A stretch of 64,000 nucleotides of DNA. Origin: the human T2T-CHM13v2.0 reference genome, Homo sapiens. Positions 3,722 through 39,995 of this stretch are shown in pieces. Every line of letters starts with the position of its first letter. Position 1 is the first letter of the stretch. Both the position numbers and the translations under genes were made by a program. Location: assembly GCF_009914755.1 (NCBI RefSeq), contig NC_060929.1; one strand, given 5' to 3'. Under the pieces are notes generated by a model that searched no databases, had not been told where the DNA came from, and was given only the letters and a program-made list of their open reading frames with translations.

Positions 3722-4631
3722 TATTTTTGTTGTTGTTGAGACAGGGTCTCACTCTGTCACCCAAGCTGGACTGCAGTGGTGCAATCTTGGCTCACTGCAG
3801 CCTCGACCTCCTGGGCTCAAGCATCCTGCCCCAGCATCCCCAAGAAGCTGAGATTACAGGCATGCGTCACCATGCCAGGCTAATTTTTGCATTTTTTGTA
3901 GCGATGGGGTTTCACCATGTTGCCTAGACTGGTCTGGAACTCCCGGGCTCAAGCGATCCACCCTCCTTCAGCCTACCAAGTGGCTCCTCAGCTGTGAGCC
4001 ACTGTGCCTAGCAAAACACTTATTTAAAAAGACCCCTATGTTAAAAGTCCTTGTTAAAGATATTTAGAATAATAAAAATGTAAATTTAAAATGGTGAATA
4101 GCTACCTAATTCAATGTTACAAGTTCCAGAGCTGGCAAATAAAATGTTCCTTTTTCTTCCTGGATCATTCATTCATTCACTCATTTGAGACAGAGTCTTA
4201 CTCTGTTACCTAGGCTGGAGTGCAGTGGCACAATCTCAGATCCTTGTAAGACAGCCAAGATTCACCACTGCAATTGGAGCCTCCCGGGCTCAAGTGATCC
4301 TCCTGCCTCAGGCTCCTGAGTAGCTGGGACCACAGACGTGTATCACTGCACCCAGCTAATTTTTGTATTTTTGGTAGATAAGGTATTTCACCATGTTGCC
4401 CAGGCTGGTCTTGTGGAACTTCTGGGCTCAAGTGATCCGCCCACCTCGGCCTTCTAAAGTGCTGGGATTGCAGGCTTGAGCCACTGTGCCCAGCCGGATC
4501 ATTTATCTATTAAGGTAGAAATGGGGTTTCCCTATGTTGCCCAGGCTGGTCTTGAACTCCTGGGCTCATGTGACCTACTGCCTTGGCCTCCCAAAGTGCT
4601 GGGATTACAGGTGTGAGCCATTGTGCCTGGC
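3722..4631 (-). mobile_element. Alu cluster (3722-4012, 4185-4497, left-arm piece 4514-4631)
   Basis: Alu consensus blocks. Confidence 0.9.
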
Positions 4632-4670: not shown

Positions 4671-4745
4671 CTTACATAAAACTTCAACAGGCGTGGACAT
4701 CTTCTTTTCACTAATCTTTTCATATTTTTGTTTCTTTGTTGCAGC
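4671..4745 (-). CDS. CSNK1A1: CK1 alpha exon 7 ([25 protein letters not shown])
   Basis: Acceptor ccacag|GCT, donor AAG|gtaagt; 75 nt. Confidence 0.99.
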
Positions 4746-5835: not shown

Positions 5836-6105
5836 CACCAACAGTGGTGACTCACACCTGTAATCCCAGTTCTTTGGGATGCTGAAGCAGGAGAATCACT
5901 TGAGCCCAAGAGTTTGAGACCAGTCTGGGCAACACAGTGAGGCACTGTCTCTACAAAAAATAATTTAAAAATTAGCTGGGCATGGTGGCATGTTCCTGTA
6001 GTCCCAGCTACAGGTAGGAGGCTGAGATAGGAGGACTGCTTGAGCCCAGGAGGTTCAGGCTGCAGTGAGCCAGGCATTCCGGCTTGGGCAACAGAGCAAG
6101 ACCAT
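5836..6105 (+). mobile_element. Old Alu (J-like)
   Basis: Degenerate dimer. Confidence 0.88.
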
Positions 6106-11174: not shown

Positions 11175-12585
11175 GTAGGGGGATAATTCCATAATTCCAT
11201 TCAATAGAGGCACATTTTCTTCAAAATCACTGTGGCTAATCTTAGTGTTTAGTACTTGCAGCATTTTTTTTTTTTTCCTAACCAGGGGTCATAATTTCCC
11301 TTGCCCTTCTAAAACATTCACAAGGTCACTTTACTAAAAACCTAGCTAACCTGTATGTACAAAATCTAAACAATGTAATACAACTTTCTTTGTAAATTAT
11401 TAAATGATGCTACGAAATGTAAGCAAAATATGTGAATGGGTAAGTAAAAATGAGGCACTATAAAACTAGTTTTATTCTTATAATATGCCTAATGATCCAC
11501 CATCTACTGTCTTCCCCCCACCCCTTATCTAACTAGTCACAATACTTGGTACTTCTTTGCCTGAATAAAAATAACTCTGAATTTCTGAAACCTTTTTTAA
11601 TAGCTGGAGGTGGTTCCTGGAATAAAGCTGGGCAGTATGGAAAAGGGTTAAATGATTATCCAGATGATACATGTGGATAATTTAAGGTATTACAAAGCAT
11701 GTTTTTTGTTTTTTGATTATTCATGCCAATACTTCCTCTTCACTGTATACTAAACTGAATGATTAAGATTCATTTGCTCAGGAGCATGAACATTTATGAA
11801 CTTAAATTTTGTGATAAAAAAGCTATTTAACTTCAACAAAAGTGTAACAAAATATGAAGAGTTCTACTTACAAATTTAGAAAATTAGTAGGGTGTTTATC
11901 CAGCCTGCCAAAAACTAAATTTAATATATTTCAATGTATTACTAATGGTAATCTACCATATAACTTGATAAGTGCTTAAGCTATGTTATTGTTATATTGT
12001 TAAGAATGCAGTATCTTCTAGTTCCAGAGCCTATAATGCTCTGTAAATATCCATTTGCTAGAAGTTGAGAATACAGACTGAGGAAATAAGTTCTAGAAAC
12101 ACTAGATCTGAAATCTGATCTACACTTACCTGAAGTTCCTTAGGGAAGGGGAAGAGAGGTGAGGTAGAATATATTCATTATACAGCACTAATGAACTGAA
12201 TTTAAATATATTTCGTGCATTAAGTTGTGTAACTCCAAATAAATTTTTAAAAACTAACGATCTATCTCAAGTTTACTATTAGGTAAACAATTTCAGTACT
12301 AGACCAACATCATTTCCTCATATGTATGTTAGAGAGCTAAACATAATATCCTATTTTCATTTAGCTTTTTTCTAAACTTTATAAGTTTTAAGCAAAAGCC
12401 ACAAAGAAATATCTTAGTAATGTTATGTTTGCCAAGTATGTCTGAATAATGCCAACGTAAGAGGTGCTTGAGCAAGATCTACATTCTCCAGAATTAAAAC
12501 AAAACAAAAATCATCAAAATAAAACAATAAAAAAGAAAAGCACATGAATTTGGGATTGAGGTTGGAATAGGAGACAGTTTCAGAC

Positions 12586-12669
12586 CTGGTTTAATCCTGA
12601 GAAAGATGGGTCCTGAGAAGTACTAACAGTCATGCTTCTTTTCCTCTTCCCCACTGGAGATTCTAAACA
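12586..12669 (-). CDS. CSNK1A1: Alternative 'L' insert exon, 28 aa (CLESPVGKRKRSMTVSTSQDPSFSGLNQ)
   Basis: 84 nt, phase 0, stop-free; acceptor tttag|TGT, weak donor CAG|gtctga; matches the known CK1alphaL insert with basic KRKR motif. Confidence 0.96.
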
Positions 12670-15081
12670 CTAAACAGACAATAGAGGGTGGCAGTGCATC
12701 AAACAGTATTGCTTACATTGCAACAATGGCCGGCGCAGACAGGCAACACCGAGGCATTAGAGAAAGAACAGGGTAGCCAAATGCCATCCTTCTTCCACCA
12801 AGCACTGTAGCTTCTCAGTTTTCCAAATAAGAATCACATGCTCAAGAACATTTGAATTCTGGAAATTACTCAGGTTTTTAATGCCACTATTTTGTGTCAC
12901 TGCCTGAAACAGGGATAGCAATGGTGACATTTGGCTCTTTTATATTTTTAATCAAAAATGGGGAATTTAGATCTGCAATCTTTGGTACCACAATCTGCCC
13001 TTCCCCCCCAAAAAAATATTGTACGGGGGAAAAAAATCTTCAGTAAGGAAGAGGTAGAAGGCATTTAGTCACCTTAAAATTTATTTTCGTAAGCATGCAG
13101 GGCTGATTACTGGAAGAGATGAGCAAATTCACTAAGATTGGAGTGGCCACTCCTAAATATCAAATTCAGAACAATTTTCCAAATAAGAAATTTAACTTTA
13201 AAAATTGTCCTCAAAAGCCCCCCAAAACCTTTTTTTCCCCATGAATAGAAAACTACTGGAACAAGCTGACCAAAGAATCCAGTCTCATACAACTGGCATT
13301 TTTCAAACTACAATACAGAAAACACTAAAAATCAACTACATAAACAAAACACTAATCTAAAATGTTCAAGAGCAACATTTAGCATTTGAATCTTAGTTGA
13401 GTAAAACACTTTGCTTCTTCCCCATGGCCTCTCTAAAACAGTGTTAAGCAGCAAGCAGCTCCACAAAATTATTTTTAATATCTCAAGGAGAAAAGGAGAC
13501 CTAAACCTCCTAAAAAGGTTTTCACCACTAGATAACTTACACTTCCTTAAGACAACTATGCGATTAACAAGCTATTCTTAAGGGGGTTGTGGGGGAGGGG
13601 GGGAAGGCAAAGTGATATCTAGGTCATCATTTAAATTTAAGGCAAAAACCACGTACTGCAATGTCAACGATGCAGAATAGGAATCACATGGTGATAATGG
13701 GTTTTTAGGGGGTAAGAAAACAGGAAGGAGAGGGCTGGGAAATGGCCAAGAAGATTGGAGTCAAATGGACAAAACTGCCCCAAAACTTAAGAACAGTAAT
13801 TTTTTTTTCAATTGAATTACCAGGCTTTACAGTAATAAAAACCTGGATACTTCAGAGAAAAGCTATAAAATATTTTTTAATGCAACTTGGGAATGACAAG
13901 ATAAGTTATGTGTATATTTAAACACCTTTCATTATTTAAAGCTCAACAAAAAAATTTAATTTCCTAAAACCTAATCAGACCAACATCAGTATCTCACATT
14001 GACAAATAACACCAATTCTAATGGTAATGTCTCCCAGTTGGCATTCATACAGGCAAACAAAGGTAAACATTTATAGCTAGACCTAAAAACACCAAACATT
14101 TCCTAATAGTTTAGTAAAACAAATGGGCATCTTCCTTCCAAAAACAAAACAAAAAAGCCACAAAAAAACAAAAAAAGCCCCCAAGTTGTCCTGAAGTTGA
14201 GAATTTCTATCAGATAGATCATCAGATCACAACATGCTTAGTGCATTGCCAATGCTGCCTGTCTGCCCGAGCTCAACATAGTATCGATAAAGAAAGCAAT
14301 TCACTCAGTAAGACTAATCATTACAGAAAAAAAGTCAACACAATTAGTTTCTAACTGCAATCATGCGCCACTAGCTAAAACCCAATCACCCCATAAGTTG
14401 AACCACTCTCAGAGACCCCAAATGAACACTAGTTTTGTTGTATGAATGTTCATTTCACTTGTCTACATTTTCCTTTAAAGGGAGAGGGAGGGGTGGAGAA
14501 CTCACCCAATTTGGCACCCAAGTAAAAAACTGTCAACTACTTTTGAAGCAGGCCCAAAAGTTACCCTTTTAAATACACAAATTCAAGGACTGAAGAATTC
14601 TCATTATCAACCATGCTCAGTCAGCAAATGTTAACACCATGGTGACAGATAAGTCAGTGTTCCCACACTGGCACAAGCACATATATTATAAAAACCCACA
14701 CTTCAGAGCCAAAGGTTAAAATCTGGTTTTAAGCATTCAGGAAGAAAAGAATATGGGGGTTTTTGCTATTTTTGTGAATGAAAAATAGATACAACTGTTC
14801 AACAGTTAAATAACTTAGACAACTACAGTTCATTATACAGCCCTTAGAATTTTATATTTCCATATAGGTAACTAACCTCGGTTGGGTAAGTTGAAGATAA
14901 TTTATTTCAAGTTACTAAGTTAATGGAGTTAGCTGATTATCCTCATAGCACAATCTTTTAAAGCAACTGTCAACAGCAAATTCAACTTACTATGGCTTTT
15001 TAAAAGATTGAAAAGTTTACCAAAGCAATTCTTGTCGAAACTTTACTCTTTGTTCTTTCATGCAAAGAGCATTTGACTAAC

Positions 15082-15180
15082 CTTATTACAGTGACGCCCA
15101 ATACCCATTAGGAAGTTATCTGGTTTAATGTCTCTGTGTATAAAATTCTTTGTATGCACATATTCAATTCTACTGATCAT
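15082..15180 (-). CDS. CSNK1A1: CK1 alpha exon 4 ([33 protein letters not shown])
   Basis: Acceptor tttccag|ATG, donor AAG|gttagt; catalytic loop HRDIKPDN; 99 nt, ends in phase 0. Confidence 0.99.
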
Positions 15181-16059
15181 CTGGAAAAAAAAGAAGGGAG
15201 AGATAATTGAGTTAAGTAGTAAATGAAAATCAACACATTTCTTAAGTATTTCAGTATCTCAATTATTTAGAGTTCACAAAGACAGCGCTAAAGAAAATGA
15301 AATGGAAAGGACAACTAAGTTCTCCATTTATTTCTAGGTTAATGGATATCTAAGCATATACCTGCTGTGTCCTTTGGCTTTACCTTCTAGTATTAATAAT
15401 TAAAACCATGGCAGGGTCTAACCCCATAGGAAGACTTGGTGTTTGTGATTTTCAAATAATAAAAGGAATACCTGTATAATAGTTTCAGTTGCTACAATAA
15501 AGGAAATAAAATAAAAACTTTCCACACTCAATCCTAGGCCTTCTAAAGTAACCTGTTAAAATGGCCTTGTATTACCCAGACCTAATTCCATGTTATAAGA
15601 TATACATATGCACACAAACAGATACACATATACTTGGGAGTGGAGGATGTTGACAGATTGGCAGATTAAGCTATAAGTAGTTGTTATAATTCTTATATAA
15701 TCTCATTCCAAAAGTTAAATATTAAACATGCCATTCTTAAAAGCTTTCCTTAATTTCTTGGAAATTATGCAAAGTCAAACGCTATAGCTCAAATATCCTT
15801 TTTAATGGCTACAAATATTCTGTGGTAGAGATGTTATGTCTTCCCCAACTCACAGTATTCTCACATTGTTTTCCACTTTTTCCTACTATAAATAATGCCA
15901 TTAATAGACATGTATCTTTACCCACTAGTGCTTTTATTTCTATGGGCTTCAAATCCCATATAATTATGGGGAGTTGCTGAGTTGAAGGGTGTATTTTTCA
16001 TTTTGATAGATAATATCACACTGCCTTCCACAATAGGCTGTAACAATTTGGATTTACTC

Positions 16060-18306
<2,247 letters not shown>

Positions 18307-20924: not shown

Positions 20925-22247
<1,323 letters not shown>

Positions 22248-31864: not shown

Positions 31865-34278
<2,414 letters not shown>

Positions 34279-36808: not shown

Positions 36809-37309
36809 CAAGGATCCTTGATCCCTGGGCCACTGACCGGTATCCAGTATAGAAGCGAAGTGAAGCTTCATCTGTATTTACAGCCACTCCCCAAAGCTGG
36901 CATTACCGCCTGAGCTCAGCCTCCTGTCAGATCAACAGAATTAGAGTCTCATAGGAACGCAAACCCTGCTGTGAACTGCACATCAGAGGGATCTAGGTTG
37001 TGCATTCCTTATGAGAATCTAATGCCTGACGATCTGTTACTGTCTCCCATGACCCCCAGATGGAAGCAGGTAGTTGCAGGAAAGCAAGCCCAGGGCTCCC
37101 ATTGATTCTACATCAAGGTGAGTTGTATAATTATTTCATTATATGTTACAATGTAATAATAATAGAAATAAAGTGCACAATAAATGTAATGCACTTGAAT
37201 CATCTCAAAATCATTCCCACCCCCACCCCACCCCCTACTTGCTCCAGTCTGTGGAAAAACTGTCTTCCACGAAACCTGTCCCTGGTGCCAAAAAGGCTGG
37301 GGACCACTG
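36809..37309 (+). mobile_element. MER1A-type hAT/Charlie non-autonomous DNA transposon
   Basis: Internal AAGCTTCATCTGTATTTACAGCC and GGGATCTAGGTTG motifs, terminal GGGGACCACTG; 8-bp TSD ACTAAAGC at 36801-36808 and 37310-37317. Confidence 0.88.
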
Positions 37310-37314
37310 ACTAA

Positions 37315-37735
<421 letters not shown>

Positions 37736-39255: not shown

Positions 39256-39336
39256 AATTTTTAAATTGTTCCTTTGGAGAACTTAATTCAATTTAGAATG
39301 GAACACACAAAAAAAGGTTTTAACAGAAACTCAATA

Positions 39337-39477
39337 CAGCTGACCCTTGAACAAAAGGGGCTTGAAATGCACAGGTCCACTTGTACACAGGTTTTTTTCT
39401 GCCTCTGCTACCCAAACAAGATCAACCCATCTTCTTCCTCCTCAGCCCAAAGTGAGGATGATGAGGGTAAAGAGCTT

Positions 39478-39511
<34 letters not shown>

Positions 39512-39951
39512 TAGTTATTGACCAATCATGTTATTGGTGAAGCTTCCAGTGAACAGTAGGCTAGTAGTAGTTAAGCTTTTGGGGAGTCAAGTTATACTTG
39601 GGGCCAGGTGCAGTGGTCCATGCCTGTAATCCCAGCACTTTGGCGGGCCGAGGTGGGTGGATCATCTGAGGTCAGGAGTTTGAGACTAGCCTGGCCATCA
39701 CTGTGAAACCCCGTCTCTACTAAAAATACAAAAATTAGCTGGGTGTGGCGGCGCGCCTGTAATCCCATGAACCTGGGAGGCAGAGGTTGCAGTGAGCCAA
39801 GATCACACCATTGCACTCCAGCCTGGGTGACAGAGCAAGACTCCATCTCAAAAAAAAAAAAAAGTTACACTTGGATTCCTGACTGTGGGGCACAGTGGGA
39901 GTGGGCTGGGGTTCAGTGCCCCTAACCCCAGCACTGTTCAAGGGTCAACTG
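39337..39951 (+). mobile_element. Tigger2-type TcMar DNA transposon interrupted by an Alu (39602-39863)
   Basis: TIRs CAGCTGACCCTTGAACA / TGTTCAAGGGTCAACTG flanked by TA; nested Alu TSD AAGTTAYACTTGG. Confidence 0.85.
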
Positions 39952-39995
39952 TAATTTTAAGTGAGCTCTCACATATTAATTGACAAGGTCCAAGA

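What the first reader, a model, noticed from the sequence alone, without database searches (positions are those of the whole stretch)
12728..14272. Long-range RNA duplex (1.5 kb span) docking beside the L-exon branch point
Seen: in the pre-mRNA, 14266-14251 (GCAGACAGGCAGCAUU) pairs with 12750-12735 (GGUGUUGCCUGUCUGC) over 16 consecutive bp, 13 Watson-Crick plus 3 G-U. It extends through GGCA/UGCC (14250-14247 with 12756-12753) and CGG/CCG across small bulges. All three deviations are G-U on the transcribed strand and would be A-C mismatches on the other. Both arms are GC-rich patches in AT-rich, non-Alu intron, and the downstream arm abuts a consensus branch motif CUAAU (12760-12756) about 90 nt before the L acceptor. 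Inference: an RNA bridge or occluder that regulates inclusion of the KRKR-bearing L exon and hence CK1 alpha localisation. This is my best candidate for an undescribed system here.
Basis: partly seen in the sequence, partly recalled or inferred. Interest (0 to 1): 0.85.

Follow-up and report, generated by a model that had tools for sequence, protein, structure and literature searches.

The report
Long-range intron helix near CSNK1A1 L exon
Two short GC-rich stretches 1.5 kb apart in the intron before the optional "L" exon of casein kinase 1 alpha can pair into a strong RNA helix that chance rarely produces, but whether it forms in cells, is conserved or affects splicing could not be tested here.

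Summary
On the transcribed (-) strand, 14266-14251 pairs with 12750-12735 over 16 bp (13 Watson-Crick, 3 G-U). With the two bulged extensions, RNAduplex gives -43.8 to -44.0 kcal/mol.

Run length alone is ordinary: 233 of 300 intron shuffles reach 16 consecutive pairs. The energy is not ordinary:
- 0 of 200 intron shuffles reach it.
- 0 of 150 targeted shuffles reach it.
- 0 of 2000 shuffles of either arm reach it.
- It ranks 2nd of 759 non-Alu seeds on the window's - strand.

Formation is not assured. Pair probability is about 0.59 in a 2.6 kb fold. The helix is absent from the minimum-energy fold of 5.6 kb. The downstream arm pairs about as well with several Alu-like segments.

The "branch point" is doubtful. 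An AG at 12713-12712 separates CUAAU from the acceptor, and a UUGAU motif lies at the usual -30 position.

Conservation, covariation and in-cell contacts could not be tested. My reading is a candidate same-intron long-range splicing helix, a known kind, with about 0.4 probability of function. I found nothing in print on it.

The parts
14247..14272 (-). Upstream (5') arm of the long-range helix. The core is 14266-14251, the extensions are 14250-14247 and 14269-14267, and the fold adds 14272-14271. It lies about 810 nt downstream of the 5' splice site at 15081.
   Evidence: Sequence. RNAduplex -43.8 kcal/mol. Partners in the 2641-nt minimum-energy fold. Its best partner among 2307 windows of the pre-mRNA is the downstream arm, at -44.7 against -38.0 for the next. 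It is single-copy in the genome.
12729..12756 (-). Downstream (3') arm. The core is 12750-12735. There is a 2-nt bulge at 12752-12751 and a bulged G at 12734. It lies 59-87 nt upstream of the L-exon acceptor.
   Evidence: It holds 3 of the intron's 13 CpGs (12751, 12735, 12732). It is not partner-specific: the cognate window ranks 4th of 2307.
12756..12760 (-). Its last base, U12756, is in the helix.
   Evidence: Motif scan. It lies outside the AG-exclusion zone plus 15 nt, so it is probably not the branch point of the annotated acceptor.
12697..12701 (-). UUGAU, the only yUnAy motif inside the AG-exclusion zone (A12699, 30 nt before the exon). It is the more likely branch point.
   Evidence: A12699 has a low total pair probability of 0.23.
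12712..12713 (-). AG dinucleotide between CUAAU and the annotated acceptor. Used as an acceptor, it would add 42 nt carrying an in-frame stop.
   Evidence: AG list. (the translation shows a stop just before CLESP...).
12586..12669 (-). L exon, 84 nt, encoding CLESPVGKRKRSMTVSTSQDPSFSGLNQ.
   Evidence: Annotation given with the finding. Translation.
14620..14647 (-). Predicted rival partner of the upstream arm, 350-400 nt further upstream and transcribed earlier.
   Evidence: Pair probabilities 0.26-0.41. Duplex -23.5 kcal/mol. It is the partner in the 5601-nt minimum-energy fold.
12730..12752 (-). Predicted local hairpin of the downstream arm (12752-12746 with 12730-12736). It is the rival state of that arm.
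   Evidence: Pair probability about 0.4. Present in the 5601-nt fold.
14233..14237 (-). GCAUG (RBFOX core motif), 10 nt from the inner end of the helix. It is relevant only to the RNA-bridge reading.
   Evidence: It is one of 6 GCAUG in the intron, and another lies at 12841-12837.
13041..13054 (-). Intronic pyrimidine-rich strand that pairs with 12656-12643 inside the L exon over 14 bp. In a nested fold this second strong helix excludes the long-range one.
   Evidence: -37.5 kcal/mol; pair probability 0.41. In one search the first 50 nt of the L exon reach -40.8 against 13086-13017, and 0 of 150 shuffles reach that.

Best explanation
The two arms are a candidate same-intron long-range RNA helix in the CSNK1A1 pre-mRNA. 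It has about 23-25 bp at about -44 kcal/mol and closes a loop of about 1.47 kb.

Shown: the complementarity, its strength, its specificity beyond base composition, and its place 59-87 nt upstream of the L acceptor.

Inferred: when it forms, it loops out about 60% of the 2412-nt intron. The upstream 5' splice site is then effectively about 0.9 kb from the L acceptor.

It would also bury the CUAAU / pyrimidine-rich / AAG module (12760-12712), which looks like a decoy or cryptic 3' splice site. The likely true branch point (A12699), the pyrimidine tract and the AG would stay unpaired.

My committed guess is that formation favours use of the L acceptor, so more of the nuclear L isoform. I hold the direction at only about 55:45.

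The helix competes with a local alternative, in which the upstream arm pairs with 14620-14647 and the downstream arm forms a hairpin. Any effect would therefore be graded and could depend on folding kinetics.
For: The energy is far beyond shuffles:
- 0 of 200 intron shuffles.
- 0 of 150 targeted shuffles.
- 0 of 2000 shuffles for each arm.

It is the best run in the intron, scoring 41 against 31 for the next. It ranks 2nd of 759 lightly repeat-filtered seeds on the - strand of the whole 64 kb. On the + strand 0 of 615 seeds reach -44.

The upstream arm's best partner among 2307 windows is the downstream arm, by 6.7 kcal/mol. The helix is in the minimum-energy fold of 12560-15200, with pair probabilities of 0.36-0.59.

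It is not a repeat. The upstream arm, and the whole 1621 nt spanning both arms, are unique in the genome apart from one 36-nt match. There is no Alu similarity. No longer inverted-repeat homology surrounds the arms (score 13, shuffles 11.4 +/- 1.4).

Four of the intron's 13 CpGs lie in the arms. Of the ten GC-richest 40-nt windows, only the two arm windows keep any CpG, 3 and 1. This hints at constraint.

All 3 non-Watson-Crick pairs are G-U on the transcribed strand, and that strand's energy is -43.8 against -37.4 for the other.

The class is established. PMC8052449 (passages read) reports that such pairs lie within introns near splice sites and obstruct cryptic sites. The validated human examples it lists have -15.8 to -35.9 kcal/mol.
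Against: No conservation, covariation, crosslinking or splicing data could be obtained.

The helix is absent from the minimum-energy fold of a 5601-nt context. At about 0.59 it is nearly isoenergetic with its rival in the 2641-nt context.

The downstream arm is promiscuous. Three other windows of the pre-mRNA score as well or better (-45.6, -44.5, -44.1). Ten windows reach -42.1 or better, mostly Alu-looking segments.

Sixteen to eighteen consecutive pairs is ordinary by length. Shuffles understate the inverted repeats found in real genomes.

CSNK1A1 does not appear in the RNA-bridge and exon loop-out tables of PMC8052449, by gene name. Nor does any coordinate start with the digits I expect for GRCh37; that offset is recalled and approximate. 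This is a weak negative: the tables require an exon within 50 nt of an arm, or an exon lying between the arms.

The direction of any effect is a guess.
Confidence: 0.4

Rival explanations
1. This is chance complementarity between two GC-rich intronic patches. It may form transiently but has no effect on splicing and is not under selection.
For: Nothing beyond sequence statistics supports function. Run length is ordinary (233 of 300 shuffles reach 16 pairs or more). The run score of 41 is reached by 7 of 300 shuffles of this single intron.

The window holds other comparably strong non-Alu pairs, at -47.5, -43.6 and -39.5. The downstream arm pairs as well with several other places. The fold drops the helix in a larger context.

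PMC8052449 itself puts false discovery for such predictions at 10% to over 50%, even within conserved regions (passage read).
Against: The extended energy is never reached in 200, 150 or 2 x 2000 shuffles. An arm lying within 90 nt of the only cassette exon is itself unlikely: about 400 nt of some 46,000 qualify, though I judged this after the fact. CpGs are kept in the arms only.
Confidence: 0.42
2. One reading: CUAAU (A12757) is the branch point used for the L exon. The helix, which takes U12756 and abuts the motif, blocks U2 snRNP binding and so represses L inclusion.
For: CUAAU is the closest match to the branch consensus within 160 nt of the acceptor (2 yUnAy motifs found). The helix overlaps its last base.

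The intervening AG could be bypassed. It is preceded by A, and from recalled knowledge AAG is a poor acceptor context. It also lies in a predicted small hairpin, G12712 with C12720 at probability 0.44. L is the minor isoform (PMC11255964, passage read).
Against: An AG at 12713-12712 lies 44 nt downstream of A12757. In the scanning model the first AG after the branch point is used, and only AGs within about 12-15 nt are bypassed (PMC1431707, passage read).

No annotated exon starts at 12711, and using that AG would bring an in-frame stop. UUGAU at -30 fits the usual geometry. In PMC8052449 complementary regions tend to avoid branch points (passage read).
Confidence: 0.07
3. It is an RBFOX-type RNA bridge. 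The helix brings the GCAUG at 14237-14233 to within about 100 nt upstream of the L exon, and a bound RBFOX protein then modulates inclusion.
For: GCAUG lies 10 nt from the inner end of the helix. This architecture is known for ENAH (as summarised in PMC8052449, passages read).
Against: The motif is AGCAUG, not UGCAUG. It is one of 6 GCAUG in the intron, and one already lies 170 nt from the acceptor without any bridge. CSNK1A1 is not named among the 296 candidate bridges of PMC8052449.

The two papers holding CSNK1A1, RBFOX and 'exon inclusion' together give no L-exon link. One lists a different CSNK1A1 event, an alternative 5' splice site (passage read). The other I saw only in the listing.
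Confidence: 0.04
4. It is a DNA-level feature: two copies of one protein-binding site in opposite orientation, or the relic of an inverted duplication or of a transposon's terminal repeats.
For: PMC8052449 warns that inverted transcription-factor sites mimic such pairs (passage read). The + strand reading still gives -37.4 kcal/mol. The strongest pair in the window (39953/39335) looks like terminal inverted repeats, which is a recalled resemblance.
Against: There is no homology beyond the roughly 25-nt core. The enclosed 1.6 kb is unique in the genome. I saw no convincing target-site duplication when reading the flanks. All three deviations keep pairing only on the transcribed strand.
Confidence: 0.05

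Closest known systems
Pairs of conserved complementary regions (PCCRs) inside human introns (Kalmykova et al. 2021, PMC8052449; passages read)
   Same: Two intronic stretches of 10 nt or more, less than 10 kb apart in one gene. The energy is far below the -15 kcal/mol cut-off and would fall in their group IV (-30 or lower). Both arms lie inside one intron and close to a splice site.
   Different: Conservation of the arms, which defines a PCCR, could not be checked here. The full PCCR tables were too large to be read, so I cannot say whether this pair is already listed.
RBFOX RNA bridges (ENAH exon 12, as summarised in PMC8052449)
   Same: A distal intronic segment carrying a GCAUG is brought next to a cassette exon by a long-range helix.
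   Different: There is no evidence of RBFOX binding or response. The motif is not UGCAUG. The helix here is much stronger than the ENAH stem, which that paper gives as -19.4 to -19.8 kcal/mol.
Competing long-range structures in ATE1 (PMC7797038; abstract seen in the listing)
   Same: One arm has two alternative partners, so the outcome could depend on folding kinetics. Here the upstream arm can pair with 12729-12756 or with 14620-14647.
   Different: ATE1 controls mutually exclusive exons, and its structures were validated by mutagenesis. Here the competition is only a thermodynamic prediction.
PLP1/DM20 long-distance intronic interaction (listed in Table 1 of PMC8052449: -15.8 kcal/mol, spread 638 nt)
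   Same: A same-gene intronic long-range pairing that tunes the ratio of two protein isoforms.
   Different: It is a different gene and geometry, and the PLP1 pairing is experimentally supported.
Distant branch points with AG exclusion zones (Gooding et al. 2006, PMC1431707; passages read)
   Same: A good branch-like motif lies far (88 nt) upstream of an alternative exon.
   Different: The defining AG-free zone between branch point and acceptor is not present: there is an AG at 12713-12712.

Membership tests
PCCR-type long-range intronic RNA structure | At least 10 nt of complementarity with hybridisation energy of -15 kcal/mol or lower | tested here: met
   16-18 consecutive pairs. RNAduplex gives -43.8 to -44.0 kcal/mol.
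PCCR-type long-range intronic RNA structure | Both arms in the same gene, no more than 10,000 nt apart, outside exons and repeats | tested here: met
   The arms are 1.5 kb apart in intron 12670-15081. There is no Alu similarity, and the stretch is unique in the genome.
PCCR-type long-range intronic RNA structure | Both arms lie in elements conserved among vertebrates | not testable with these tools
   No vertebrate genomes or conservation tracks are on hand. Searches found no orthologous DNA. CpG retention in the arms is only an indirect hint.
PCCR-type long-range intronic RNA structure | Compensatory substitutions that keep the pairing | not testable with these tools
   This needs a multi-species alignment of the intron.
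RNA bridge (RBFOX type) | A binding site of the factor next to the distal arm, with the exon next to the mate arm | tested here: inconclusive
   GCAUG lies 10 nt from the upstream arm. The exon is 59 nt from the downstream arm, just beyond the 50 nt used in PMC8052449. Binding was not tested.
RNA bridge (RBFOX type) | Exon inclusion responds to depletion of the factor | not testable with these tools
   No knockdown data are on hand. CSNK1A1 is absent from the bridge table by name.
Exon loop-out structure | The two arms flank the regulated exon | tested here: not met
   Both arms lie upstream of the L exon.
Branch-point occlusion | An arm covers the branch point actually used | tested here: inconclusive
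   The arm covers only U12756 of CUAAU. By the AG-exclusion rule that motif is unlikely to be the branch point, and the likelier A12699 is 30 nt outside the helix. No branch mapping is on hand.
Inverted Alu pair | The arms are Alu sequences in opposite orientation | tested here: not met
   Local alignment scores against 8 Alu copies were 8.0-14.5. The maxima of the shuffled controls were 12.0-16.0.
Known structured RNA family (Rfam) | A match to a curated covariance model | tested here: not met
   In 12000-15400 on both strands at E up to 1 there were only two sub-threshold hits, neither at the arms.

The most novel reading that the evidence does not exclude
The helix is one half of a two-state switch for the L exon.

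In the 'closed' state the L exon, its acceptor and its likely branch region are zipped to intron segments 12886-13073 and 13218-13253. This includes a 14-bp helix over the purine-rich KRKR-coding part of the exon.

In the 'open' state the 1.5-kb helix encloses those masking segments in its loop and frees the acceptor.

The upstream arm is first caught by 14620-14647, which is transcribed earlier. The choice would then depend on transcription speed or on a helicase or RNA-binding protein, setting how much nuclear CK1 alpha a cell makes.

Caveat: the two states exclude each other only by construction of the nested fold model. A pseudoknot holding both helices is physically possible.
Probability: 0.1. 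Interest if true: 0.6.

Novelty: new member of a known kind. Interest (0 to 1): 0.4.

Why it matters
The L exon inserts 28 residues, including the PVGKRKR nuclear localisation signal, into the CK1 alpha kinase domain. L-containing variants are nuclear and fail to rescue Wnt/beta-catenin regulation (PMC11255964, passages read).

My searches found nothing on what controls L inclusion. A validated structural element would give a handle, for example arm-blocking antisense oligonucleotides, to shift the nuclear/cytoplasmic balance of a kinase relevant to Wnt signalling, p53/MDM2 and lenalidomide response. Those last links are general knowledge and were not checked here.

As RNA biology it would add one more case to an established class rather than a new principle.

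Tried and rejected
Conservation and orthologues
- The L-exon peptide was too short for the search for related loci.
- A degenerate pattern back-translated from it found nothing in genome contigs or viral contigs.
- Covariation therefore remains untested.

Earlier findings and supplementary files
- The full PCCR tables of PMC8052449 were too large to read.
Either could hold this pair.

Repeat origin: rejected
- The arms and the enclosed 1.6 kb are unique in the genome. That search skips very common words.
- There is no Alu similarity and no extended inverted homology.

Known RNA families
- Rfam gave no hit at the arms.

Repeat masks
- My first window-wide control used a mask widened by 150 nt. 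It left only 39% of the window and removed the target itself.
- I replaced it with the lighter mask. One search's counts should not be used.

Local structure at the acceptor
- It is unremarkable (z = -0.34).

Strand asymmetry of the G-U pairs
- It is real but too weak to count: 3 of 3, which is 1 in 8 by chance.

An untested lead from memory
- About 11 nt of the upstream arm equal part of the 3' half of a human microRNA, miR-214-3p.
- I did not test this. By my rough estimate a coincidence of that length with some human microRNA is expected about 0.3 times by chance.
- Rfam found no microRNA family at the arms.
Full report
WHAT IS THERE

The window is part of human CSNK1A1, transcribed from the - strand. 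The optional L exon is 12669-12586. Translated, it gives CLESPVGKRKRSMTVSTSQDPSFSGLNQ. The intron before it runs from 15081 to 12670, is 2412 nt long and has 36% G+C.

GGCA/UGCC continues the helix inward across a 2-nt bulge. CGG/CCG continues it outward across one bulged G. In another register there are 18 consecutive pairs.

RNAduplex gives -43.8 kcal/mol for the extended arms and -27.9 for the core. The same places read on the + strand give -37.4. The arms have 56-58% G+C.

IS IT MORE THAN CHANCE?

Length alone is not. Of 300 dinucleotide-preserving shuffles of the intron, 233 hold a run of 16 or more pairs and 77 hold a run of 18 or more. The GC-weighted score of the run (41, next best in the real intron 31) is reached by 7 of 300.

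The energy of the extended duplex is:
- No shuffle among 200 reaches it (mean -27.8, sd 2.7, best -38.2).
- With the downstream arm fixed and the rest of the intron shuffled, 0 of 150 reach -44.0 (best -42.7).
- With only one arm shuffled, so that local composition is kept, 0 of 2000 reach it for either arm (best -37.8 and -41.8).
- Among the 45 pairs of the ten GC-richest 40-nt windows of the intron, the arm pair gives -42.6, the next pair -29.7 and the median -17.2.

Against real sequence rather than shuffles, I looked at the whole 64 kb on the - strand, at pairs up to 3 kb apart, with a light k-mer repeat filter. The duplex ranks 2nd of 759 seeds. First is a 20-bp pair at 39953/39335 that looks like transposon terminal repeats (a recalled resemblance). 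Third is a G-run/C-run pair. On the + strand 0 of 615 seeds reach -44. An earlier run with a wider mask removed the target itself and is void.

IT IS NOT A REPEAT OR A KNOWN RNA

An 86-nt query around the upstream arm finds only itself in the genome. The 1621 nt spanning both arms finds itself plus one 36-nt match elsewhere. That search skips very common words.

Neither arm region aligns to any of 8 Alu copies of the window better than shuffled controls. Around the arms there is no further inverted homology (score 13, shuffles 11.4 +/- 1.4, maximum 17.5). Rfam gives nothing at the arms.

WOULD IT FORM?

The minimum-energy fold of 12560-15200 (2641 nt) contains the whole helix. In the ensemble its pairs have probability 0.36-0.59.

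The remaining 0.4 or so is one alternative state. In it the upstream arm pairs with 14620-14647 (-23.5 kcal/mol) and the downstream arm folds into a local hairpin, 12752-12746 with 12730-12736.

In a 5601-nt context (11400-17000) the minimum-energy fold is that alternative, not the long-range helix. The two states are therefore nearly isoenergetic and the prediction depends on context.

The downstream arm is also not partner-specific. I scanned it against 2307 windows of the pre-mRNA. The cognate window ranks 4th (-44.0), behind 33085-33026 (-45.6), 1285-1226 (-44.5) and 44825-44766 (-44.1). Ten windows reach -42.1 or better. Most look like sense Alu sequence and pair through bulged, G-U-rich duplexes. 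The nearest of them lie about 3.8 kb upstream.

The upstream arm, by contrast, prefers the downstream arm by 6.7 kcal/mol.

THE BRANCH POINT

Within 160 nt of the acceptor there are two yUnAy motifs: CUAAU (A12757, -88) and UUGAU (A12699, -30). There is also an AG at 12713-12712 between CUAAU and the acceptor.

Gooding et al. [quoted passage not shown] Only AGs within about 12-15 nt are bypassed. They therefore look for branch points in the AG-free zone plus 15 nt. Here that zone is 12671 to about 12728. UUGAU is inside it and CUAAU is outside.

Use of the AG at 12713-12712 would add 42 nt ending in an in-frame stop, and no annotated exon starts there. I therefore think the helix does not dock beside the branch point in use. 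It lies 30 nt upstream of the likely one and covers what looks like a decoy: a branch-like motif, a pyrimidine-rich stretch and a poor AG.

This is inference, and I cannot exclude the distal branch. The AG sits in a predicted small hairpin (probability 0.44).

A HINT OF CONSTRAINT

The intron has 13 CpGs, an observed/expected ratio of 0.165. Four of them are in the arms (14269, 12751, 12735, 12732). Of the ten GC-richest 40-nt windows, only the two arm windows hold any CpG, 3 and 1. The other eight hold none although several have comparable C x G content.

The CpG at 14269-14268 pairs with the CpG at 12732-12731. This is indirect. The downstream arm may be constrained simply because it lies next to a conserved alternative exon.

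HOW IT MOST LIKELY WORKS

Shown: two specific, strong, non-repeat complementary arms in one intron, one of them 59-87 nt from the L acceptor.

Inferred: pairing loops out about 1.47 kb and shortens the effective distance between the upstream 5' splice site and the L acceptor to about 0.9 kb. It buries the decoy module and leaves A12699, the pyrimidine tract and the AG unpaired. A12699 has a total pair probability of 0.23.

I commit to a modest positive effect on L inclusion, but hold the direction only at about 55:45. I put the probability that the helix has any splicing function at about 0.4, and pure chance at about 0.42. The strict branch-point occluder, an RBFOX bridge and a DNA-level origin share the rest.

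A SECOND HELIX

The first 50 nt of the L exon, the purine-rich KRKR-coding part, pair with 13086-13017 at -40.8 kcal/mol, and 0 of 150 shuffles reach this. The core is 14 bp, 13054-13041 with 12656-12643 (-37.5; probability 0.41).

In the 5.6-kb fold the whole exon, the acceptor and the likely branch region are zipped to 12886-13073 and 13218-13253. In a nested model this state and the long-range helix exclude each other, which suggests a switch. That exclusion is built into the model, however, and a pseudoknot with such long loops is physically possible.

COMPARISON WITH WHAT IS KNOWN

Long-range intronic pairings that tune splicing are an established class. Kalmykova et al. 2021 (PMC8052449, passages read) catalogue 916,360 conserved complementary pairs. 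These lie preferentially inside introns near splice sites, avoid branch points and obstruct cryptic sites. False discovery is estimated at 10% to over 50%. The validated examples they list have -15.8 to -35.9 kcal/mol.

This pair meets their energy, length and distance criteria. The conservation criterion could not be tested. It is not an exon loop-out, since both arms lie upstream of the exon, and it is not an inverted Alu pair. The bridge reading has only a nearby AGCAUG in its favour.

IN PRINT?

- No paper holds both 'CSNK1A1' and 'long-range RNA structure'.
- Three papers hold CSNK1A1 with 'RNA secondary structure' and 'intron', of which two were listed. Neither title or abstract start concerns CSNK1A1 splicing (listing only).
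- Of the two papers with CSNK1A1, RBFOX and 'exon inclusion', one lists a different CSNK1A1 event. The other I saw only in the listing.
- A six-term search needing any two terms matched 3,795 papers. None of the 25 listed holds CSNK1A1.
- The bridge and loop-out tables of PMC8052449 hold no CSNK1A1. They hold no coordinate beginning with the digits I expect for this locus in GRCh37; that offset is recalled and approximate.
- The full PCCR tables and the supplements of two later papers could not be read. The pair may already be listed there.

VERDICT

The helix is a credible but unproven candidate, the branch-point detail is probably wrong, and the kind of element is known. Interest is 0.4.

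Noticed in passing
window 13041-13054 with 12643-12656 (- strand); wider 13086-13017 with 12669-12620: An intronic pyrimidine-rich stretch pairs over 14 bp with the purine-rich, KRKR-coding start of the L exon, at -37.5 kcal/mol. The wider region reaches -40.8, and 0 of 150 shuffles reach that. It could mask the exon or an exonic enhancer.
   Followed up: partly
window 39934-39953 with 39335-39354: The strongest non-Alu inverted pair of the window: 20 bp, -47.5 kcal/mol, 618 nt apart, just beside the RPL29P14 pseudogene. It looks like the terminal inverted repeats of a DNA transposon (a recalled resemblance).
   Followed up: no
window 12725-12765 (- strand) against 33026-33085, 1226-1285, 16646-16705, 16506-16565, 36866-36925, 22026-22085, 826-885, 37646-37705: The downstream arm is predicted to pair at -42 to -45.6 kcal/mol with many Alu-looking sense segments of the same pre-mRNA. 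At DNA level the arm itself is not similar to Alu.
   Followed up: partly
window 12712-12713 (- strand): An AG 42 nt upstream of the annotated L acceptor. If used, it would extend the exon by 42 nt and bring an in-frame stop, making it a possible poison acceptor.
   Followed up: partly
window 13597-13607 with 12999-13009 or 11511-11519 (- strand): A C-run can pair with a G-run upstream of the L exon (-32.8 kcal/mol) or with one downstream of it (-32.1). The second pairing would loop out the L exon. The sequence is low-complexity, so this is weak evidence.
   Followed up: no
window 5876-5892 with 3824-3840 (- strand): A 17-bp GC-rich pairing (run score 42) whose arms flank the constitutive exon 4671-4745.
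   Followed up: no
window 14880-14934 (+ strand): A sub-threshold Rfam match to the Na+ riboswitch aptamer: 27.3 bits against a gathering score of 40.5, E = 0.0074. It is on the untranscribed strand of a human intron and is almost certainly chance.
   Followed up: no
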